Source of the DNA: Dehalococcoidia bacterium
GTDB lineage: Bacteria > Chloroflexota > Dehalococcoidia > Lucifugimonadales > UBA1127
Assembly: GCA_965217675.1 (NCBI GenBank)
Contig: OZ244559.1
Coordinates: 962,126 to 1,026,125 of the forward strand
Reading direction: 5' to 3'
Length of the DNA: 64,000 bases
Shown: positions 5,753-24,122 of the stretch, piece by piece
Layout: every line of letters starts with the position of its first letter
Position numbering within the stretch: the first letter of the stretch is position 1
The notes under the pieces: model-generated
The model's database searches: none
Seen by the model: the letters and a program-made list of their open reading frames with translations, nothing else
What the model was told of the DNA's origin: nothing
Translations under genes and position numbers: made by a program

Positions 5753-5959
5753 ATGACGACAAGGAACGTAGAGGAGCTGGAGACTAAGATCCAGGTCGCG
5801 GCGGACGAGTTGCAGGAGCTGGAGACCGCAAACGACGTGCGGCGGTGGTGGAACACGCACTACTACGCGCTGGGGCACAAGCGTTTGGGCAGGCTGCTGC
5901 TGGGGCAGTCCGTGGAGCGGCTGCTGGAGCGGGCGTCGGCCAGCAGGGGCGACGACTAG
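5753..5959 (+). CDS. Small hypothetical protein (68 aa)
   Basis: ATG 5753 after GGGG; GC3-rich codons; MTTRNVEELETKIQ...WWNTHYYALGHKRLGRLLLG; followed by a terminator. Confidence 0.7.
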   Translation: MTTRNVEELETKIQVAADELQELETANDVRRWWNTHYYALGHKRLGRLLLGQSVERLLERASASRGDD

Positions 5960-18079: not shown

Positions 18080-18427
18080 TCACAGCTCCATGACGCGGCG
18101 GAGCCATTGGGACAGGCCTTCCATGTCTCGTCTGGAGAGAGTTCCCAGCTTGCGAAGCAAGTGCGAGGAGCGCAGCGTGGTCAGCCGGGCGCGAACGGTG
18201 CTCGGCCCCAGCAGTCCTGCGTTCGTCCAGTCCATGACGGTGTAGTCGCCTATGCGAGGCGTTGCCCGGCCGTGGCCCGTTATGGGGGCGATGATGACCT
18301 CGCCCGTGCCGGTGTTGAAGTGGTCGCCGCTGACGACGACGGCGGGCCTGCGCTGGGTGGATGTCGGCGAGTTCAACGGGAAGGGGACGAGGACCACGTC
18401 GCCGTGGTGGGTGTTAGAGACGGTCAT
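18080..18427 (-). CDS. PemK/MazF-family toxin
   Basis: GDVVLVPFP...RRPAVVVS..FN....VIIAPIT...GLLGPSTVRA.L.TL....L.RKLGTL. Confidence 0.88.
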   Translation of the reverse strand: MTVSNTHHGDVVLVPFPLNSPTSTQRRPAVVVSGDHFNTGTGEVIIAPITGHGRATPRIGDYTVMDWTNAGLLGPSTVRARLTTLRSSHLLRKLGTLSRRDMEGLSQWLRRVMEL

Positions 18428-18833
18428 AGGCCGCGTCCTCGGGGCTGTCCCAATCCGTCGTGAAGCTCTCGTCCGTAGCGGAGATGAGGGCGGAGGCCTC
18501 CTCCTGCAGGTTCAGGTCCTCTACGGCCTTGTGGGTGGCAACGTACAGGTCTTTGCCGGTGGGACGGGGGAACTTCTCTATGTAGCCGGACTTGACCTGC
18601 TGGCCAATCCACTGGTGCGGCGTCTCGTGCTCGTCGAGGAGGCCGAAGAGGCCCTTCTGGTCGAGGCCGCCGGTGGCATAGAGGCGGGTCAGGAGCTCGC
18701 GGCGGCGCCGATACATGCGCTCCATGGTGTCTTCCATGGGGGAACCTAGGAGCTCCTGCAGCTTATCGATGGTCTCACGCAAGGTGCGAAGGCACGCGAT
18801 GATCTGGTCGTTGTGATTGGAATTGCTTGTCAT
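18414..18833 (-). CDS. Putative antitoxin with wHTH-like core and acidic C-terminal peptide
   Basis: Overlaps toxin start by 14 nt; AGGAG RBS; ends ESFTTDWDSPEDAAYDRL. Confidence 0.65.
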   Translation of the reverse strand: MTSNSNHNDQIIACLRTLRETIDKLQELLGSPMEDTMERMYRRRRELLTRLYATGGLDQKGLFGLLDEHETPHQWIGQQVKSGYIEKFPRPTGKDLYVATHKAVEDLNLQEEASALISATDESFTTDWDSPEDAAYDRL

Positions 18834-18858
18834 GTGCAAAGCTCCTGAAAAGCGTTTC

Positions 18859-18880
18859 GTTAGCTTCTAACACAATCGTA
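18859..18880 (-). promoter_or_regulatory. Extended -10 promoter and candidate autoregulatory operator of the TA pair
   Basis: TGgTACGAT (minus strand, hexamer 18875-18880) followed by inverted repeat GTTAG-N3-CTAAC (18859-18871). Confidence 0.5.
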
Positions 18881-19092
18881 CCAGAAAACGCGACAGCGGT
18901 ACAGCGGGAGCATGGTATCACCGAGACCATCGCCGGGCAACATTCTCAGGCGGATTGAGATTGAGTCGCAAGGTTGGGAGGGGCTACCAACTGAAACGCC
19001 GTTCCGAGACATCTTGCGTAGCCCTGGGATGGAAGGCCGGCGCATACGAGGACAGCCCTCATCCCCGCCACAGCGCCAGCGTGGCGGGGGCG

Positions 19093-19340
19093 TGGGCAGG
19101 GTGAATTGTTTCTGAAGCCTGCCTCCGATCATAGCTGAGCAGGGGCGGATTGTTTTCAAACAATTGCCTTTCGTCGTAGCTGGGCAGGGGTGGATTGTTT
19201 TCAAACAATTGCCTCCCGTCGTAGCTGGGCCGAGGGAGTTGTTTCGAAACAATCGTAGCTGGGTGAGACTTTGTTTGGGAAACAATCTCGTAGCTGAACT
19301 GCGGGGTCTCGAATACGGCAATTGAATTGTTTCAGGAAGA
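19093..19340. repeat. Tandem array of degenerate 34-45 bp units with TAGCTG and TTGTTT-N2/3-AAACAA palindromes
   Basis: TAGCTG at 19132, 19177, 19222, 19256, 19291 (periods 45, 45, 34, 35). Confidence 0.85.
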
Positions 19341-19548
19341 TGTTCTTCTAGGGATGCACACCCGGGATCTTTCACGCGCGCTGTCAGGAGCGTCGGGTTG
19401 CAGCGGGGTATGCCCGAAATTGAGAGTGCGTGGTGTTCCATAAGGCAAACGTAGCCGCGCGAGGGAGAGCGGGACATGGGGATGGTGTCAGGGCGTCGGT
19501 GCGTGGGGGCAGTTTCCACCCGCTGGACGCCTTGGGCGGGCCGACGAG

Positions 19549-19833
19549 CTACCAACTAAAATGCAATTCCAGCACGTCCTCCGTCGTCCACGGAAGCGAG
19601 TTCAGCCAGGCCCAGATAGCGGCCTCTTCCTTGAATGGCACCTTGCGCTCTCTACAGAAATCCCGCAGCAGCCGTCGCAGCGGGCGCCGCTCGAAGTAGA
19701 GGTACGCCTCGCCCTCGGCGCGCGCCCACTCCCCGGCCTCCCAGTCCTGAGCCATCTCCCTCGCGAAGTCATACGCGAGGCCCTTAGTGATGTCCAAGTA
19801 CTGAAAGGACATGATGCCCATGTGGAGGGACAT
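19549..19833 (-). CDS. Hypothetical protein (94 aa)
   Basis: ATG after GGGGG; own sigma70-like promoter; GC3-rich codons; no recognised motif. Confidence 0.7.
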   Translation of the reverse strand: MSLHMGIMSFQYLDITKGLAYDFAREMAQDWEAGEWARAEGEAYLYFERRPLRRLLRDFCRERKVPFKEEAAIWAWLNSLPWTTEDVLELHFSW

Positions 19834-19851
19834 GGCTAACCCCCTACTGCA

Positions 19852-19891
19852 AAGTGGTCCAGGACCATAAGCAGCAAGGGGGGATTGTCAA
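19852..19891 (-). promoter_or_regulatory. Sigma70 promoter overlapping GGTCC-W-GGACC repeat (copy 1)
   Basis: TTGACA (19886-19891) - 16 nt - TATGGT (19864-19869); GGTCC 19856 and GGACC 19862. Confidence 0.65.
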
Positions 19892-19920
19892 GGGGAGCGA
19901 AAGCGGAAGGAAGAGAGTCG

Positions 19921-20676
19921 TTAGAAGTCAAGAATGCTGGTCTGAGCCGTATCGATAAGCTCTTGTAATTCGCGAAAGGTGCCCGGCCCGCCGATATTGT
20001 CCCACATCTCCTCACCAATCAAGACTTCCTGCGTCATATCCATCACCCGCTTTGTAATATTGTGTCCATATGCCTCGCGAGTTATGAAAGGGTTGTATGT
20101 GAGTCCCATGAATGCCCTGGCTGTCGGAATGCCCCGGCGTGCCATCATGGTTTCAAATGTGAGCATTTTCCGTTTGGATTCCGCCACCATGTCCAGGTTT
20201 GGCCTGGGAGTTTTCAACTCGATGAACAATGGCCCGGTGGTGTAGTCTTCTATGTACAGGTCGGCAGTTACGGCCATGTTGAGAATACCGCCACCACCGG
20301 AACCCAATATCTCGCTGCGTTCTGCATCGTGGTTTGGGTTCCTGCGCCTCCCGGAACGCAACTCATTGGCGATTTGAGCAATCATGTTGCTTGCCGCATC
20401 ATTCAACTGGCCAGTGATCTCATGTTCAAGGTTGACCTTGCTGAATCGGTCCAAAGCAATTGCTTCAGCCAACTTGGGATAGAGTGTACTTCCCATGGAG
20501 GTAACGATGCTGCGCTCAAGACGGGCGGCCAGTATGGCCTGATCCGGAAATACGAGTCTATGGAACGGGTAGGCAGTCCGTAAGTCCGTTGCGGCCAAGC
20601 TTTCAATCTTGGGCCGTTGCGAAAGCACAAACTGCTGCATGATGGTGATGATCCTTTGCCGAGTGCTTTCCTTCAT
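19921..20676 (-). CDS. Type II restriction endonuclease, TdeIII/MjaII-like
   Basis: RSIVTSMG, ADLYI...FIELKTPRPN (PD-ExK), GLTYNPF, LIGEEMWDNIGGPGTF; ATG overlaps MTase TGA; visibly lower GC. Confidence 0.75.
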   Translation of the reverse strand: MKESTRQRIITIMQQFVLSQRPKIESLAATDLRTAYPFHRLVFPDQAILAARLERSIVTSMGSTLYPKLAEAIALDRFSKVNLEHEITGQLNDAASNMIAQIANELRSGRRRNPNHDAERSEILGSGGGGILNMAVTADLYIEDYTTGPLFIELKTPRPNLDMVAESKRKMLTFETMMARRGIPTARAFMGLTYNPFITREAYGHNITKRVMDMTQEVLIGEEMWDNIGGPGTFRELQELIDTAQTSILDF

Positions 20677-21869
20677 CCCCGCTCTCTCTCCCAAATGAGG
20701 ATGCTCTCGTAGAATTCGTCCGCACGACGCCCGGTCCTGCGGTTCACGTGCCGCTTTAGGACGTCCACGCACCGGAACCCGGCCTTATCCGCAACTTGCC
20801 CATAGAGATCGAACTTGTCGTTAACTACGATGACGACAATACCGTTAGGGTGAAGTGACTGCCGGAGGTTGCTGAATACGGCAGCCATGTCATCCACGTA
20901 TTCCTGTCGCGCACGGCCTGAATTACCTCTGTTGGCAGGGCCTATGTCTTGTTCCCCTGCCCAGGGAAGTCCAAGAAGTTCGTAGGCGTAGCGGTGCTGC
21001 TCGTGGTAATCGATTAGTCCGACATAGGGGGGTGAGGTGAAAACGAGATCATGATGGGGAAATGGGAACTTACGGGCATCGCCGTGCTTCACGTCCGCTG
21101 ACACACCGTCTCGTGTCCCGGCGAACTCGCTTATGCGACGAAGCGTGTCCAAGCTATAGCGTTTGAGAAACTGTGCTGCGTTAGTTGTGGGTCTACATGT
21201 TCGACTGTGCTTGTAGCAATAATACGGTTCCTTCTGAGGGCGTTTGGGGAAGTCAAGATCAAAGTGGGTCGTTTGTCGCGCAGAACGGGCCGCGCGAGAC
21301 AAAATGACCTGCAAAACTTCTTGGTTCCGGTAATCAGGGATAAGAGAACGGAAACTCTCTAAGTCTCTTAGTGCGTCAGCATGGAACCATTCGGTCAAAT
21401 AAGGGTCTGGATAGTAGCTATCAGCATCTTCAAAAATGGCCAACTGCTGCGAGCTCAACGCCCGCCGAACTATGTCATTGATCTCCGAGTCCAAAAGCTC
21501 TAGGTCGTATTTGGCCGTTTTGACCCGGGTGAGAAGGCAATTGAATTCAGAGATATCACATCCGAACGACGGGATGCCAAGCGCAAGAGCCTGTACCAGT
21601 GTGGTGCCTGACCCACAGAAGGGGTCGCATACTACCGAAGGACGGTACTTGCGCAGGAATATCTCAGCTAGCTGAGGGATGAACTTGCCTTAGTAGGGAT
21701 GTAGACGGTGGACGTGCTTTGTGCGGATTCTCTCCGGAAGGTCCTTCTCGGTCCAATTCAGGTTGAGGCTTTGGAGATGAGTGTCGGGGGTGATGGACTC
21801 AAAGTCCGTGAAGGGGACCAAGGGCAGATGAGGACTTGAAAAAGCATCCCTGCTCGGCGCTCGAGCCAA
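20673..21869 (-). pseudogene. N4-cytosine DNA methyltransferase (M.MjaII-like) interrupted by an in-frame TAA at 21690-21692
   Basis: TTG start after GGGAG; one frame reads TKHVHRLHPY*GKFIPQL...DPFCGSGTT...FTSPPY. Confidence 0.8.
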
Positions 21870-21886
21870 TCCGTTCTCCCCGCGTT

Positions 21887-21927
21887 AAGTGGTCCTGGAC
21901 CTTAAGGACCACCGCGCGGAGTGTCAA
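21887..21927 (-). promoter_or_regulatory. Sigma70 promoter of the R-M operon containing three GGWCC sites (repeat copy 2)
   Basis: TTGACA (21922-21927) - 17 nt - TAAGGT (21899-21904); GGWCC at 21891, 21897, 21906. Confidence 0.7.
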
Positions 21928-22005
21928 TGGGGGCGGAGGGCTGGTTTTGCGGGAACCGAGCGGGGCTTGGCGTGAGGCGGGCCGGGCGGCTTGGGGCGAC
22001 GCCGC

Positions 22006-22227
22006 CTACAGCCCAAAGAAGTATTTGACGGCGATGGCAACCAGCACCCCAAGCATCGCGATAGCGACGGCTTTAATGATCTTCAATTCACCTTCCACGT
22101 GGCTTATGCGACCGCCTAGCTCTGTGTGCACCGTGCCGATGTACGCGGTCAACTCCTGGTGCTGCCGCGCGTTCTCCTGTACAAAGTCAGAGAAGTATTT
22201 GGGGACGTTCTGCTCTTGCGTCGTCAT
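22006..22227 (-). CDS. Small coiled-coil membrane protein, short paralog
   Basis: 73 aa; N-terminus almost identical to 23715-24122; C-terminal TM helix. Confidence 0.8.
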   Translation of the reverse strand: MTTQEQNVPKYFSDFVQENARQHQELTAYIGTVHTELGGRISHVEGELKIIKAVAIAMLGVLVAIAVKYFFGL

Positions 22228-22288
22228 GTGTGGTTCCTTTTCATCGGTACCCTTATTGTGCGCGGGGCGTGTGGGGCCGTCAACGCCC

Positions 22289-23714: not shown

Positions 23715-24122
23715 CTAGAGGCCGAAGACGTATTTGATGACTGCGACGGCCACGGCGGCAAAGATCGCCACCGTTGCACCAAGCATCGCGACGCTGACGG
23801 CCTTGATGATACGGAGTTCGCCCTCCACGCCGCCGATGCGGGTGCCGAGGCTTGTCTCTACACCGCCGATGCGGGTGCCGAGGCTTGTCTCCACACTGCC
23901 GATGCGGGCGGTCAAGGCCGTCTCCACGCCGCTGATGTGGTTGCCAAGGCTTGTCTCCACCCCGCTGATGCGGTTGCCAAGGCTTGTCTCCACGCCGCTA
24001 ATGCGGGCGGTCATGGCCACTTCTACACCGCTGATGCGGTCTGCCAACTCCTGGTGTTGACGTGCGTTCTCCTGCACGAAGTCCGAGAAGTACTTGGGAA
24101 CGCTTTGCTCTTGCGTCGTCAT
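23715..24122 (-). CDS. Coiled-coil membrane protein with seven 11-aa repeats, long paralog
   Basis: RISGVETSLGN-type units (33-bp period) then a TM helix. Confidence 0.8.
   Translation of the reverse strand: MTTQEQSVPKYFSDFVQENARQHQELADRISGVEVAMTARISGVETSLGNRISGVETSLGNHISGVETALTARIGSVETSLGTRIGGVETSLGTRIGGVEGELRIIKAVSVAMLGATVAIFAAVAVAVIKYVFGL

What the first reader, a model, noticed from the sequence alone, without database searches (positions are those of the whole stretch)
19852..21927. R-M cassette bracketed by a 20-bp direct repeat built from GGWCC sites and overlapping two -10 boxes
AAGTGGTCCAGGACCATAAG (19852) and AAGTGGTCCTGGACCTTAAG (21887) are 18/20 identical, 2035 bp apart, and enclose exactly the REase and MTase genes (seen). 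The second copy plus its flank has three GGWCC sites in 20 bp. TdeIII/MjaII-family enzymes recognise GGNCC (established); assigning this cassette to that family is my inference from motifs. Two non-exclusive readings: (1) methylation-dependent promoter control, with precedent in CfrBI-type R-M autoregulation, here applied to two promoters; (2) insertion with target duplication at its own recognition sites, as described for Helicobacter R-M genes. Excision between the repeats would put the upstream promoter directly in front of the 94-aa gene.
Basis: partly seen in the sequence, partly recalled or inferred. Interest (0 to 1): 0.75.

Follow-up and report, generated by a model that had tools for sequence, protein, structure and literature searches.

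The report
Duplicated promoter core flanking a decaying R-M cassette
The 20-bp repeat is real, but it is two copies of a promoter core that flanks a slot where relatives of this uncultured Dehalococcoidia bacterium swap different anti-phage genes, so it is an ordinary defence-island feature, not proof of a new insertion or control mechanism.

Summary
Two 18/20-identical copies (19852-19871, 21887-21906) enclose only a methyltransferase gene and a TdeIII-family restriction endonuclease gene, all on the minus strand. Each copy covers the -10 box and start region of a sigma-70-like promoter with a perfect TTGACA 16-17 nt upstream.

Twenty-two syntenic loci from relatives change the reading. The segment 19503-22285 is an accessory island, absent from eight relatives. 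Where it is present, an upstream promoter (Pc) and the promoter of a 94-aa orphan gene (P94) flank interchangeable cargo:
- TdeIII-type R-M
- EcoO109I-type R-M
- two unrelated AIPR genes
- a methyltransferase with a DndB/GmrSD-like protein
- an IS1595 insertion

GGTCC-rich cores occur at both promoters whatever the cargo. The two other alleles of this R-M have only the left copy. In the window, P94's core has been replaced by a Pc-type core, so the near-perfect repeat is a local recombination product. It is not a general target duplication.

A 27-nt block with three GGWCC sites is invariant in all three R-M alleles, although synonymous sites are saturated for the one pair measured. Self-regulation of the R-M promoter therefore stays plausible but untested. 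The methyltransferase carries a single-base nonsense mutation (TTA to TAA).

Interest is modest.

The parts
19503..22285 (-). Accessory island: 73-aa gene, promoter Pc, M, R, promoter P94, 94-aa gene. It lies between the glycyl-tRNA synthetase stop and a conserved ~700-bp non-coding stretch.
   Evidence: Seven relatives (L094, L097-L101, L103) join window ~22286 to ~19502 with only about 75-115 bp between them. L003 also lacks the island.
22006..22227 (-). 73-aa gene with a C-terminal hydrophobic tail. It is the left-end gene of the island in some relatives. No family match.
   Evidence: The protein is identical in L001 (dS 0.06).
21922..21927 (-). -35 hexamer TTGACA of promoter Pc, which drives the M-R operon.
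   Evidence: Read from sequence. Invariant in six Pc copies.
21888..21915 (-). Conserved promoter/operator block GCGGTGGTCCTTAAGGTCCAGGACCACT. It contains the -10 box TAAGGT (21899-21904), three GGWCC sites and overlapping palindromes. Repeat copy 2 (21887-21906) lies inside it.
   Evidence: 28/28 identical to L002 and 27/28 to L106, while the R-M DNA is 74% and 89% identical and the adjacent spacer and leader differ.
20673..21869 (-). DNA methyltransferase gene (PF01555; DPFCGSGTT then TSPPY, probably N4-cytosine type). It is inactivated by an in-frame TAA at 21690-21692. TTG start with GGGGAG 6 nt upstream.
   Evidence: L106 has TTA and L002 has CTC at that codon. dN/dS against L002 is 0.04.
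19921..20676 (-). TdeIII-family type II restriction endonuclease gene, full length (251 aa). Its start overlaps the M stop (ATGA).
   Evidence: PF09520, E 8.9e-43. PADLOC REase_II. 79-92% identical homologues of 251 aa. D...ELK motif kept, as in L002.
19872..19920 (-). 49-nt tail after the R stop. It carries the -35 TTGACA (19886-19891) for the downstream promoter and has no homologue in any related locus.
   Evidence: R-M homology with L106 ends at the R stop.
19848..19871 (-). Repeat copy 1 extended to 24 nt, CTTATGGTCCTGGACCACTTTGCA. This Pc-type core holds the -10 box TATGGT (19864-19869) and the palindrome TGGTCCTGGACCA. It now serves as promoter of the 94-aa gene.
   Evidence: 22/24 identical to the Pc cores of L001 and L106. 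23/28 to L001 Pc against 16-19/28 to the native 94-aa promoters. Promoter scan 10/12.
19549..19833 (-). 94-aa orphan gene at the right end of the island in 12 loci (window plus 11 relatives). Function unknown.
   Evidence: Only 5 homologue clusters among 5.8 billion proteins. No Pfam, NCBIfam or PADLOC match. AlphaFold2 pLDDT 75 with no PDB fold match.

Best explanation
The two repeat copies are the cores (-10 box, start site and first transcribed bases) of two sigma-70-type promoters inside a small accessory island of an uncultured Dehalococcoidia bacterium.

The island has a fixed frame. An upstream promoter Pc comes first, then a variable defence cargo, then the promoter P94 and a 94-aa orphan gene. 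Pc and P94 resemble each other in every relative (TTGACA, 16-17 nt, TA-GGTCC-N-GG(A/T)CCAC).

In this window the cargo is a TdeIII-family R-M operon that arrived together with its own allele of Pc. That allele is copy 2, which drives M and R as one translationally coupled operon.

The native core of P94 has been replaced by a second Pc-type core, copy 1. This raised the resemblance to 18/20 and made the cassette look bracketed. The replacement most likely came from recombination between allelic islands: a homologous crossover in the Pc spacer on the left and an illegitimate join on the right. Short-patch gene conversion between the two similar promoters is the alternative.

The cassette is now decaying, because one T-to-A change has turned a Leu codon of M into a stop.

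Shown here:
- the repeat itself
- the promoter anatomy
- the island frame with swapped cargo
- the Pc-type identity of copy 1
- the single-base nonsense mutation

Inferred:
- that the promoters are active
- the recombination route
- that the invariant 27-nt block at copy 2 is a regulatory site
For: **The island and its cargo**
- The island is absent from 8 relatives: L094 and L097-L101 and L103 and L003.
- Different cargo lies between the same flanks. AIPR on the reverse strand is in L001, L082, L083, L085 and L096. An unrelated forward AIPR is in L087 and L084, and in L084 it is disrupted by IS1595 plus a methyltransferase. L086 has an EcoO109I-family R-M (PF14511, E 3e-85). L102 has a methyltransferase plus a DndB/GmrSD-like protein. 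L002 and L106 have the TdeIII-type R-M.

**Promoter conservation**
- P94 in 9 relatives reads TTGACA, 16-17 nt, TA(T/C)GGTCC(C/G)GGTCCAC; L086 is a variant with CAAGGTCCTGGTCCAC. Pc is found in 6 loci.

**Origin of the two copies in the window**
- Copy 1 groups with Pc: 20-23/28 to Pc cores, 16-19/28 to native P94 cores, and 22/24 to the Pc of L001 and L106.
- The window matches L001 perfectly for 91 nt up to CATTGACAC. It then matches L002 at 28/28 through the core. This places a crossover in the spacer.
- R-M homology with L106 (88.7% over about 2.0 kb) runs from the Pc -35 to the R stop and ends there.

**Right junctions and age**
- Three R-M alleles have three different right junctions. 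The window has a tail followed by a Pc-type core. L002 joins into about codon 19 of the 94-aa gene. L106 has degraded remnants and then the chromosomal flank.
- The R-M alleles are old and were under purifying selection: M dS above 3 and dN/dS 0.04, against dS 0.53 for glycyl-tRNA synthetase.
- The nonsense codon is TAA where L106 has TTA.
Against: - No relative shows the presumed resident state, with Pc directly in front of the 94-aa gene. The recombination route is therefore a reconstruction.
- The link between the window's leader GTAGGGGGTTAGCC and L001's GTAGGGGGTGAGTTAGG rests on a short match.
- Promoter activity and start sites are unknown in this uncultured lineage.
- Copy 2's own promoter has a weak -10 box (TAAGGT, 3/6).
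- Why Pc and P94 resemble each other in every island is not explained by recombination alone. It may reflect a shared regulator that I could not identify.
- The TAA could be an assembly error. The related contig L106 is a 4x-coverage assembly whose M gene is broken by frameshifts.
Confidence: 0.6

Rival explanations
1. The R-M controls itself through its own recognition sites. The three GGWCC (GGNCC) sites over the -10 box and start of Pc are methylated or bound by the methyltransferase, which tunes transcription of M and R. In the window the same would apply to the 94-aa gene. This reading is compatible with the best explanation for copy 2.
For: - A 27-nt block (CGGTGGTCCTTAAGGTCCAGGACCACT) is invariant in all three R-M alleles. 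The neighbouring spacer and leader vary, and synonymous sites of M are saturated for the one pair measured, window against L002.
- This is the only cluster of three GGWCC sites within 20 nt in 64 kb.
- The three R-M-linked Pc copies share TAAGGT and the outer inverted repeat GTGGTCC...GGACCAC. The two AIPR-linked Pc copies have TATGGT and CTGGTCC.
- MjaII, named together with TdeIII in a plasmid annotation, recognises GGNCC.
- No controller-protein gene is present.
Against: - The specificity is not known. The annotated TdeIII/MjaII relatives in the plasmid collection are only about 22-27% identical and pair with m5C methyltransferases, whereas this one is an SPPY-type enzyme.
- GGNCC is only mildly under-represented in the window, at 0.83-0.86 of expectation.
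- GGTCC-N-GGTCC cores are conserved at P94 in islands with no R-M.
- Two Clostridium plasmids with TdeIII-family systems show no site cluster at their promoters: one has a single GGACC near a putative -35, the other has no GGNCC site at all.
- The methyltransferase here is a pseudogene, so any such control is not operating now.
Confidence: 0.25
2. The cassette truly inserted with target duplication. The R-M entered a promoter in front of the 94-aa gene and duplicated about 20-24 bp of target, perhaps after breakage at its own recognition sites, as proposed for Helicobacter R-M genes.
For: - Direct repeats bracket exactly M and R.
- Copy 1 is of the Pc type, and its leader resembles the sequence that follows the single Pc copy in the close relative L001.
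- A second R-M in the same slot (L086) is of the EcoO109I family. From my own knowledge that family cuts RGGNCCY, which has the same core.
Against: - The -35 and spacer upstream of copy 1 are not duplicated.
- The two other alleles of this R-M (L002, L106) have no right-hand copy and have different right junctions.
- No empty site with a single copy and contiguous flanks was found. The seven empty sites scanned lack both copies.
- Copy 1 is closer to the Pc of L001 and L106 (22/24) than to the window's own copy 2 (20/24), so the two copies look like different alleles and not a fresh duplication.
- There is no transposase and there are no terminal inverted repeats.
Confidence: 0.12
3. The core is the operator of a transcription factor that co-regulates Pc and P94. 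The factor could be a host GntR/FadR-like protein or the island's own 94-aa protein. On this view the resemblance of the two copies reflects shared regulation and not history.
For: - Pc and P94 keep TA-GGTCC-N-GG(A/T)CCAC across all islands, while their spacers and leaders diverge.
- The window and Pc versions form a 13-nt palindrome over the start site.
- The 94-aa gene is the constant partner of the slot.
Against: - Native P94 carries a direct repeat (GGTCC-N-GGTCC), conserved in 9 loci, and not a palindrome.
- No other promoter in the 64-kb window has the motif.
- No regulator gene is nearby, and the 94-aa protein shows no DNA-binding fold or family.
- All loci are close relatives, so conservation is weak evidence.
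- A metagenome scan for the promoter pattern gave only unrelated hits.
Confidence: 0.15
4. The cores are sites of a site-specific recombinase that exchanges or inverts cassettes, in the manner of integrons or dif modules.
For: Cargo differs, and AIPR genes occur in both orientations between similar cores. The left cargo boundaries fall close to the Pc core.
Against: - The forward and reverse AIPR genes are unrelated in DNA sequence, so they are not one gene inverted.
- The right-hand boundaries fall upstream of the P94 -35, not at the core.
- The cores are much shorter than known Xer or integron sites.
- No recombinase gene lies in or next to the island.
Confidence: 0.04

Closest known systems
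Defence-island hot spots between conserved core genes, known from pan-genome studies of E. coli, Vibrio and Pseudomonas (from my own knowledge)
   Same: Fixed chromosomal flanks (the glycyl-tRNA synthetase gene on one side and a PemK-toxin pair on the other). Empty sites occur in some strains. Unrelated defence cargo (two R-M types, two AIPR types, a DndB/GmrSD-like pair) occupies the same position in close relatives.
   Different: The island is very small (0.1-4 kb of cargo) and has no integrase. It has a constant frame of two similar promoters and a 94-aa orphan gene. The host is an uncultured Dehalococcoidia lineage.
TdeIII/MjaII-family type II R-M systems (Pfam PF09520)
   Same: The endonuclease matches the family model strongly. 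A methyltransferase gene is adjacent and co-directional.
   Different: It is only about 22-27% identical to the annotated Clostridium plasmid members. Its partner is an N6_N4 (SPPY) methyltransferase, whereas those have m5C enzymes. The specificity is unknown. The methyltransferase is broken by a nonsense codon.
CfrBI-type autoregulation, in which the system's own recognition site inside the promoter is methylated (from my own knowledge)
   Same: Candidate recognition sites (GGWCC) sit over the -10 box and start of the R-M promoter, and that block is invariant across diverged alleles. There is no controller protein.
   Different: CfrBI has divergent M and R promoters sharing one site, whereas here M and R form one operon. 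Neither the specificity nor any methylation effect has been shown.
Insertion with long target duplication of R-M genes in Helicobacter pylori (Nobusato, Kobayashi and colleagues 2000; from my own knowledge)
   Same: An R-M gene pair is flanked by direct repeats of host sequence.
   Different: The repeat is shorter. Other alleles of the same R-M lack the second copy. No empty site with one copy was found. The two copies look like different alleles of one promoter.
Homology-facilitated illegitimate recombination during natural transformation (from my own knowledge)
   Same: One junction lies in shared sequence (the Pc spacer). The other junction is different in each allele and produces a duplication or a deletion of resident DNA.
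   Different: The donor and recipient states are inferred and were not observed.

Membership tests
Type II R-M, RE_TdeIII family | Endonuclease matches PF09520 above the curated cut-off | tested here: met
   147.1 bits against a cut-off of 27.2, E 8.9e-43, covering 6-239 of 242 model positions.
Type II R-M, RE_TdeIII family | Adjacent cognate DNA methyltransferase that is intact | tested here: not met
   A PF01555 methyltransferase is adjacent (50 bits against 26.7) but has an in-frame TAA at 21690-21692. L106 has TTA and L002 has CTC at that codon.
Type II R-M, RE_TdeIII family | Recognition of GGNCC | not testable with these tools
   MjaII = GGNCC is documented. The annotated relatives found in the plasmid collection are only about 22-27% identical. 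GGNCC is at 0.83-0.86 of expectation in the window, which is not diagnostic.
CfrBI-type methylation-dependent autoregulation | The system's own recognition site lies inside its promoter hexamers | tested here: inconclusive
   Three GGWCC sites overlap the -10 box and start of Pc, and the block is invariant in 3 alleles. The enzyme's site is unknown.
CfrBI-type methylation-dependent autoregulation | Divergent M and R promoters sharing the site | tested here: not met
   M and R are co-directional with an ATGA stop/start overlap, so they form one operon.
CfrBI-type methylation-dependent autoregulation | Methylation changes transcription | not testable with these tools
   This needs reporter assays or a methylome.
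Controller (C) protein-regulated R-M | Small helix-turn-helix gene and C-box upstream | tested here: not met
   There is no third gene between the repeats. The 94-aa and 73-aa proteins have no HTH or other family match.
Insertion with long target duplication | Direct repeats of target sequence flank the inserted R-M | tested here: met
   18/20 (21/25) direct repeats enclose exactly M and R.
Insertion with long target duplication | Relatives show an uninterrupted target with a single copy | tested here: not met
   Eight relatives lack the island; the seven scanned for the core (L094, L097-L101, L103) have no copy at the site. The loci with a single Pc copy carry other cargo.
Insertion with long target duplication | Other insertions of the same element show the same duplication | tested here: not met
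   L002 and L106 have the left copy only and have different right junctions.
Defence-island hot spot | Same flanking genes, different defence cargo and empty sites among close relatives | tested here: met
   Six cargo states (five cargo types plus an IS1595-disrupted one) and 8 empty sites in 22 syntenic loci.
Transcription-factor operator (GntR/FadR-like) | Motif recurs at several unrelated promoters | tested here: inconclusive
   The exact motif occurs only at these two promoters in 64 kb. The genome beyond the window was not available. The metagenome pattern scan gave only unrelated hits.
Transposable element with target-site duplication | Transposase or terminal inverted repeats | tested here: not met
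   There is no transposase ORF between the repeats and no terminal inverted repeats.

The most novel reading that the evidence does not exclude
The GGTCC-repeat cores of Pc and P94 could form one control module for a cassette-swapping defence slot. They would be read either by the cargo's own methyltransferase (methylation state of GGWCC) or by the orphan 94-aa protein. Expression of the constant 94-aa gene would then be coupled to the state of whatever defence cargo sits upstream. That would be a new kind of small regulator or sensor of a defence hot spot.
Probability: 0.1. Interest if true: 0.6.

Novelty: new member of a known kind. Interest (0 to 1): 0.3.

Why it matters
The finding shows how a near-perfect repeat around an R-M cassette can arise from recombination between allelic islands that share promoter sequence. 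That is a useful caution against reading every such bracket as a target duplication.

It also documents a compact, integrase-free defence hot spot in an uncultured Dehalococcoidia lineage. At least five cargo types, plus an IS1595-disrupted variant, occupy the same few hundred bases, and an orphan 94-aa gene always sits at the edge.

If the invariant 27-nt block proves to be a methylation-sensitive promoter, it would add a controller-free, single-operon example of R-M self-regulation.

Tried and rejected
- **Exact look-ups.** Look-ups of the window's 94-aa protein and endonuclease found nothing.
- **Genome scan.** The scan with the 94-aa alignment found no relative.
- **Metagenome scan.** Scanning for TTGACA-N16/17-TAWGGTCCNGGWCCAC returned six unrelated contigs, mostly low in GC. 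The collection does not hold this lineage, so it says nothing about a regulon.
- **Leader hairpin.** A hairpin in the native P94 leader (CCCGGTC...GACCGGG, with one apparent compensatory change in L086) is not better than shuffles and is absent in L082 and L001. I rejected it as a conserved RNA structure.
- **94-aa protein.** AlphaFold2 gave pLDDT 75 and no PDB fold match with E below 0.7. There is no Pfam, NCBIfam or PADLOC hit.
- **Rfam.** The window contains only three tRNAs.
- **Site avoidance.** GGNCC and GGWCC avoidance as a clue to specificity is too mild to use, at 0.83-0.86 of expectation.
- **Literature.** I could not find TdeIII's recognition sequence in the held papers. Only MjaII = GGNCC was confirmed.
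- **Solved structures.** There is no useful relative for M or R.
- **Clostridium plasmids.** TdeIII-family systems on these plasmids show no promoter cluster of GGNCC sites.
- **Inversion of one AIPR cassette.** Rejected, because the two orientations are unrelated genes.
Full report
**1. The observation**

They are 18/20 identical, and the match extends to 21/25. In 100 dinucleotide-preserving shuffles of the surrounding 4 kb, an 18/20 direct pair turned up once. The 12-mer TGGTCCWGGACC occurs exactly only at these two places in the 64-kb window. The three GGWCC sites at 21891-21910 are the window's only cluster of three within 20 nt.

All genes here run on the minus strand. In transcription order they are:
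- a 73-aa gene (22227-22006)
- copy 2 of the repeat
- a methyltransferase gene (TTG at 21869, ending at 20673)
- a restriction endonuclease gene (20676-19921, whose ATG overlaps the methyltransferase stop as ATGA)
- copy 1 of the repeat
- a 94-aa gene (19833-19549)

The endonuclease matches Pfam RE_TdeIII with E 8.9e-43. The methyltransferase matches N6_N4_Mtase and carries DPFCGSGTT followed by TSPPY. The cassette has about 53% G+C, against about 64% for the window.

**2. Both copies are promoter cores**

On the minus strand the two regions read as follows.
- Copy 1: TTGACA, 16 nt, TATGGT, then CCTGGACCACTTTGCA. A GGGGG ribosome-binding site and the ATG of the 94-aa gene follow. The promoter scan scores it 10 of 12.
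- Copy 2: TTGACA, 17 nt, TAAGGT, then CCAGGACCACTT. GGGGAG and the TTG start of the methyltransferase follow.

The repeat therefore spans the -10 box, the likely start site and the first transcribed bases of two promoters. It contains the palindrome TGGTCC-W-GGACCA.

**3. What relatives show**

The glycyl-tRNA synthetase next door places the window in uncultured Dehalococcoidia. Exact-protein look-ups and that scan gave 22 syntenic loci.

Eight loci lack the whole segment. In L094, L097-L101 and L103 the synthetase stop and the sequence matching window position 19502 are about 75-115 bp apart. L003 also lacks it. Positions 19503-22285 are therefore an accessory island.

The remaining loci carry different cargo in the same place:

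| Cargo | Loci |
|---|---|
| AIPR gene, reverse strand | L001, L082, L083, L085, L096 |
| Unrelated AIPR gene, forward strand | L087; L084 (interrupted by IS1595 and a 557-aa methyltransferase) |
| EcoO109I-family R-M | L086 (PF14511, E 3e-85) |
| Methyltransferase plus 658-aa protein with weak DndB/GmrSD similarity | L102 |
| Same TdeIII-type R-M as the window | L002, L106 |

L095 is not in the table. It has no island, and the flank there has diverged and carries a 208-aa ORF with no family match.

**4. The frame around the cargo is constant**

The 94-aa gene, where present, has its own promoter P94. In nine relatives this reads TTGACA, 16-17 nt, TA(T/C)GGTCC(C/G)GGTCCAC, followed by a GGGAGG leader. 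L086 is a variant with CAAGGTCCTGGTCCAC. The two GGTCC units form a direct pair, not a palindrome.

An upstream promoter Pc is present in six loci and reads cATTGACAc, a spacer, then TGGTCCTTA(A/T)GGTCCAGGACCAC and CGGGGAG. It drives the TdeIII-type R-M in the window, L002 and L106, and the forward AIPR gene in L084. In L001 it faces the tail of a reverse AIPR gene. In L086 it is cut off at the -10 box.

GGTCC-rich cores thus flank the slot whatever the cargo. They are not a mark left by this cassette.

**5. What is special in the window**

Its copy 1 is not the native P94 core. Over 28 nt it matches Pc cores at 20-23 positions and native P94 cores at 16-19. The 24-mer CTTATGGTCCTGGACCACTTTGCA is 22/24 identical to the Pc of L001 and L106, and nothing else in the 92 nt upstream of the 94-aa gene has a homologue.

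On the left, the window is identical to L001 for 91 nt up to CATTGACAC. It then switches to a 28/28 match with L002 through the core. A crossover in the Pc spacer therefore brought in copy 2 together with the R-M.

Homology with the closest R-M allele (L106, 88.7% over about 2.0 kb) runs from the Pc -35 to the R stop and ends there.

The three R-M alleles have three different right junctions:
- Window: a 49-nt tail followed by the Pc-type core.
- L002: a join into about codon 19 of the 94-aa gene, with no second copy.
- L106: degraded remnants followed by the chromosomal flank, with no 94-aa gene.

The pattern is one shared junction in common sequence and one idiosyncratic junction. I read this as recombination between allelic islands, of the homology-facilitated illegitimate kind. 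Short-patch conversion of P94 by Pc is the alternative. I could not find the presumed resident state (Pc directly in front of the 94-aa gene), so this step is inference.

**6. Age and state of the R-M**

Between the window and L002, synonymous sites in the methyltransferase are saturated (dS above 3) and dN/dS is 0.04. The neighbouring synthetase has dS 0.53. The R-M alleles are therefore older than the split of their hosts and were under purifying selection.

The window's methyltransferase has TAA where L106 has TTA and L002 has CTC. This is a single T-to-A change. The endonuclease is full length and keeps its D...ELK motif.

An intact endonuclease with a broken methyltransferase has four possible explanations:
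- very recent decay
- protection by another enzyme
- a silent endonuclease
- an assembly error

The close relative L001 has lost the R-M but keeps what looks like a piece of its leader (CGGGGAGT) after Pc.

**7. Is there regulation at the core?**

The block CGGTGGTCCTTAAGGTCCAGGACCACT is identical in all three R-M alleles, while the spacer before it and the leader after it vary. At 74% background identity, a 28/28 match with L002 has a chance of about 2e-4 (my arithmetic). This is a phylogenetic footprint of a functional element larger than a -10 box, and it contains the three GGWCC sites.

- The enzyme's specificity is unknown. The annotated TdeIII/MjaII relatives in the plasmid collection are about 22-27% identical and pair with m5C methyltransferases.
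- Only MjaII = GGNCC could be confirmed from the literature.
- GGNCC is only mildly depleted.
- Two Clostridium plasmid systems show no cluster at their promoters.
- M and R form one operon, unlike CfrBI.

A transcription-factor operator is also possible. However, native P94 is not palindromic, no second site exists in 64 kb, and no regulator gene is nearby. The 94-aa protein has no recognisable fold or family. A recombinase site is unlikely.

**8. Verdict**

The repeat is best explained as two alleles of one island promoter core, brought side by side by recombination in a small defence hot spot. The finding is a new member of known kinds: a defence hot spot and a TdeIII-family R-M in decay. 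Interest is modest. The open point worth an experiment is whether the invariant GGWCC block is a methylation-sensitive promoter.

Noticed in passing
window 21690-21692: In-frame TAA in the methyltransferase (HPY*GKF). L106 has TTA and L002 has CTC at this codon. The endonuclease downstream is intact, which should be lethal unless it is silent, another enzyme protects the genome, or the base is an assembly error.
   Followed up: partly
window 19120-19254: Three tandem copies of a 45-nt unit, each containing the inverted repeat GATTGTTTTCAAACAAT. They lie inside a ~700-bp non-coding, lower-G+C stretch (18840-19548) that is conserved at about 85% in relatives, including those without the island. 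There is no Rfam match.
   Followed up: partly
window 22006-22227 and 23715-24122: Two paralogous genes flank the glycyl-tRNA synthetase gene. They share the N-terminus MTTQEQ(N/S)VPKYFSDFVQENARQHQEL and a C-terminal hydrophobic tail. The longer one holds tandem 11-residue repeats (RISGVETSLGN-like), and its length varies among relatives (73 to 135 aa).
   Followed up: no
window 18080-18839: A PemK/MazF-family toxin gene (115 aa) is preceded by an overlapping 141-aa gene with no family match, possibly a new antitoxin. The toxin sequence is identical in at least 19 contigs.
   Followed up: no
L086 498-2397: A second R-M type sits in the same slot: an SPPY methyltransferase, an EcoO109I-family endonuclease (that family cuts RGGNCCY, from my own knowledge) and a 111-aa protein that looks GIY-YIG-like by eye (no family match). 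Its P94 core reads AGGTCCT, which fits RGGNCCY. Two unrelated endonuclease families with a GGNCC core in one slot may be coincidence.
   Followed up: partly
L097 about 5895-5925: An 'empty' site keeps a 27-nt piece (CTGCTGAAGGACTTCGCGGTGGAGCGG) identical to part of the L002 form of the 94-aa gene. At least some empty sites therefore arose by deletion of an island.
   Followed up: no
L002 11340-11440 and 14100-14520: Several copies of a short G+C-rich hairpin element (for example GGGGCCCCTGCCTGCGCAGGGGCGACGGG) are scattered around the island in this relative. They look like a REP- or MITE-like repeat.
   Followed up: no
L089 483-521: An unrelated 57% G+C metagenome contig has TTGACA-N17-TATGGTCCTGGACCAC embedded in a longer inverted repeat (CTGACTGCCTCGTG...CACGAGGCAGTCA). 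It looks like an operator of some other organism.
   Followed up: no
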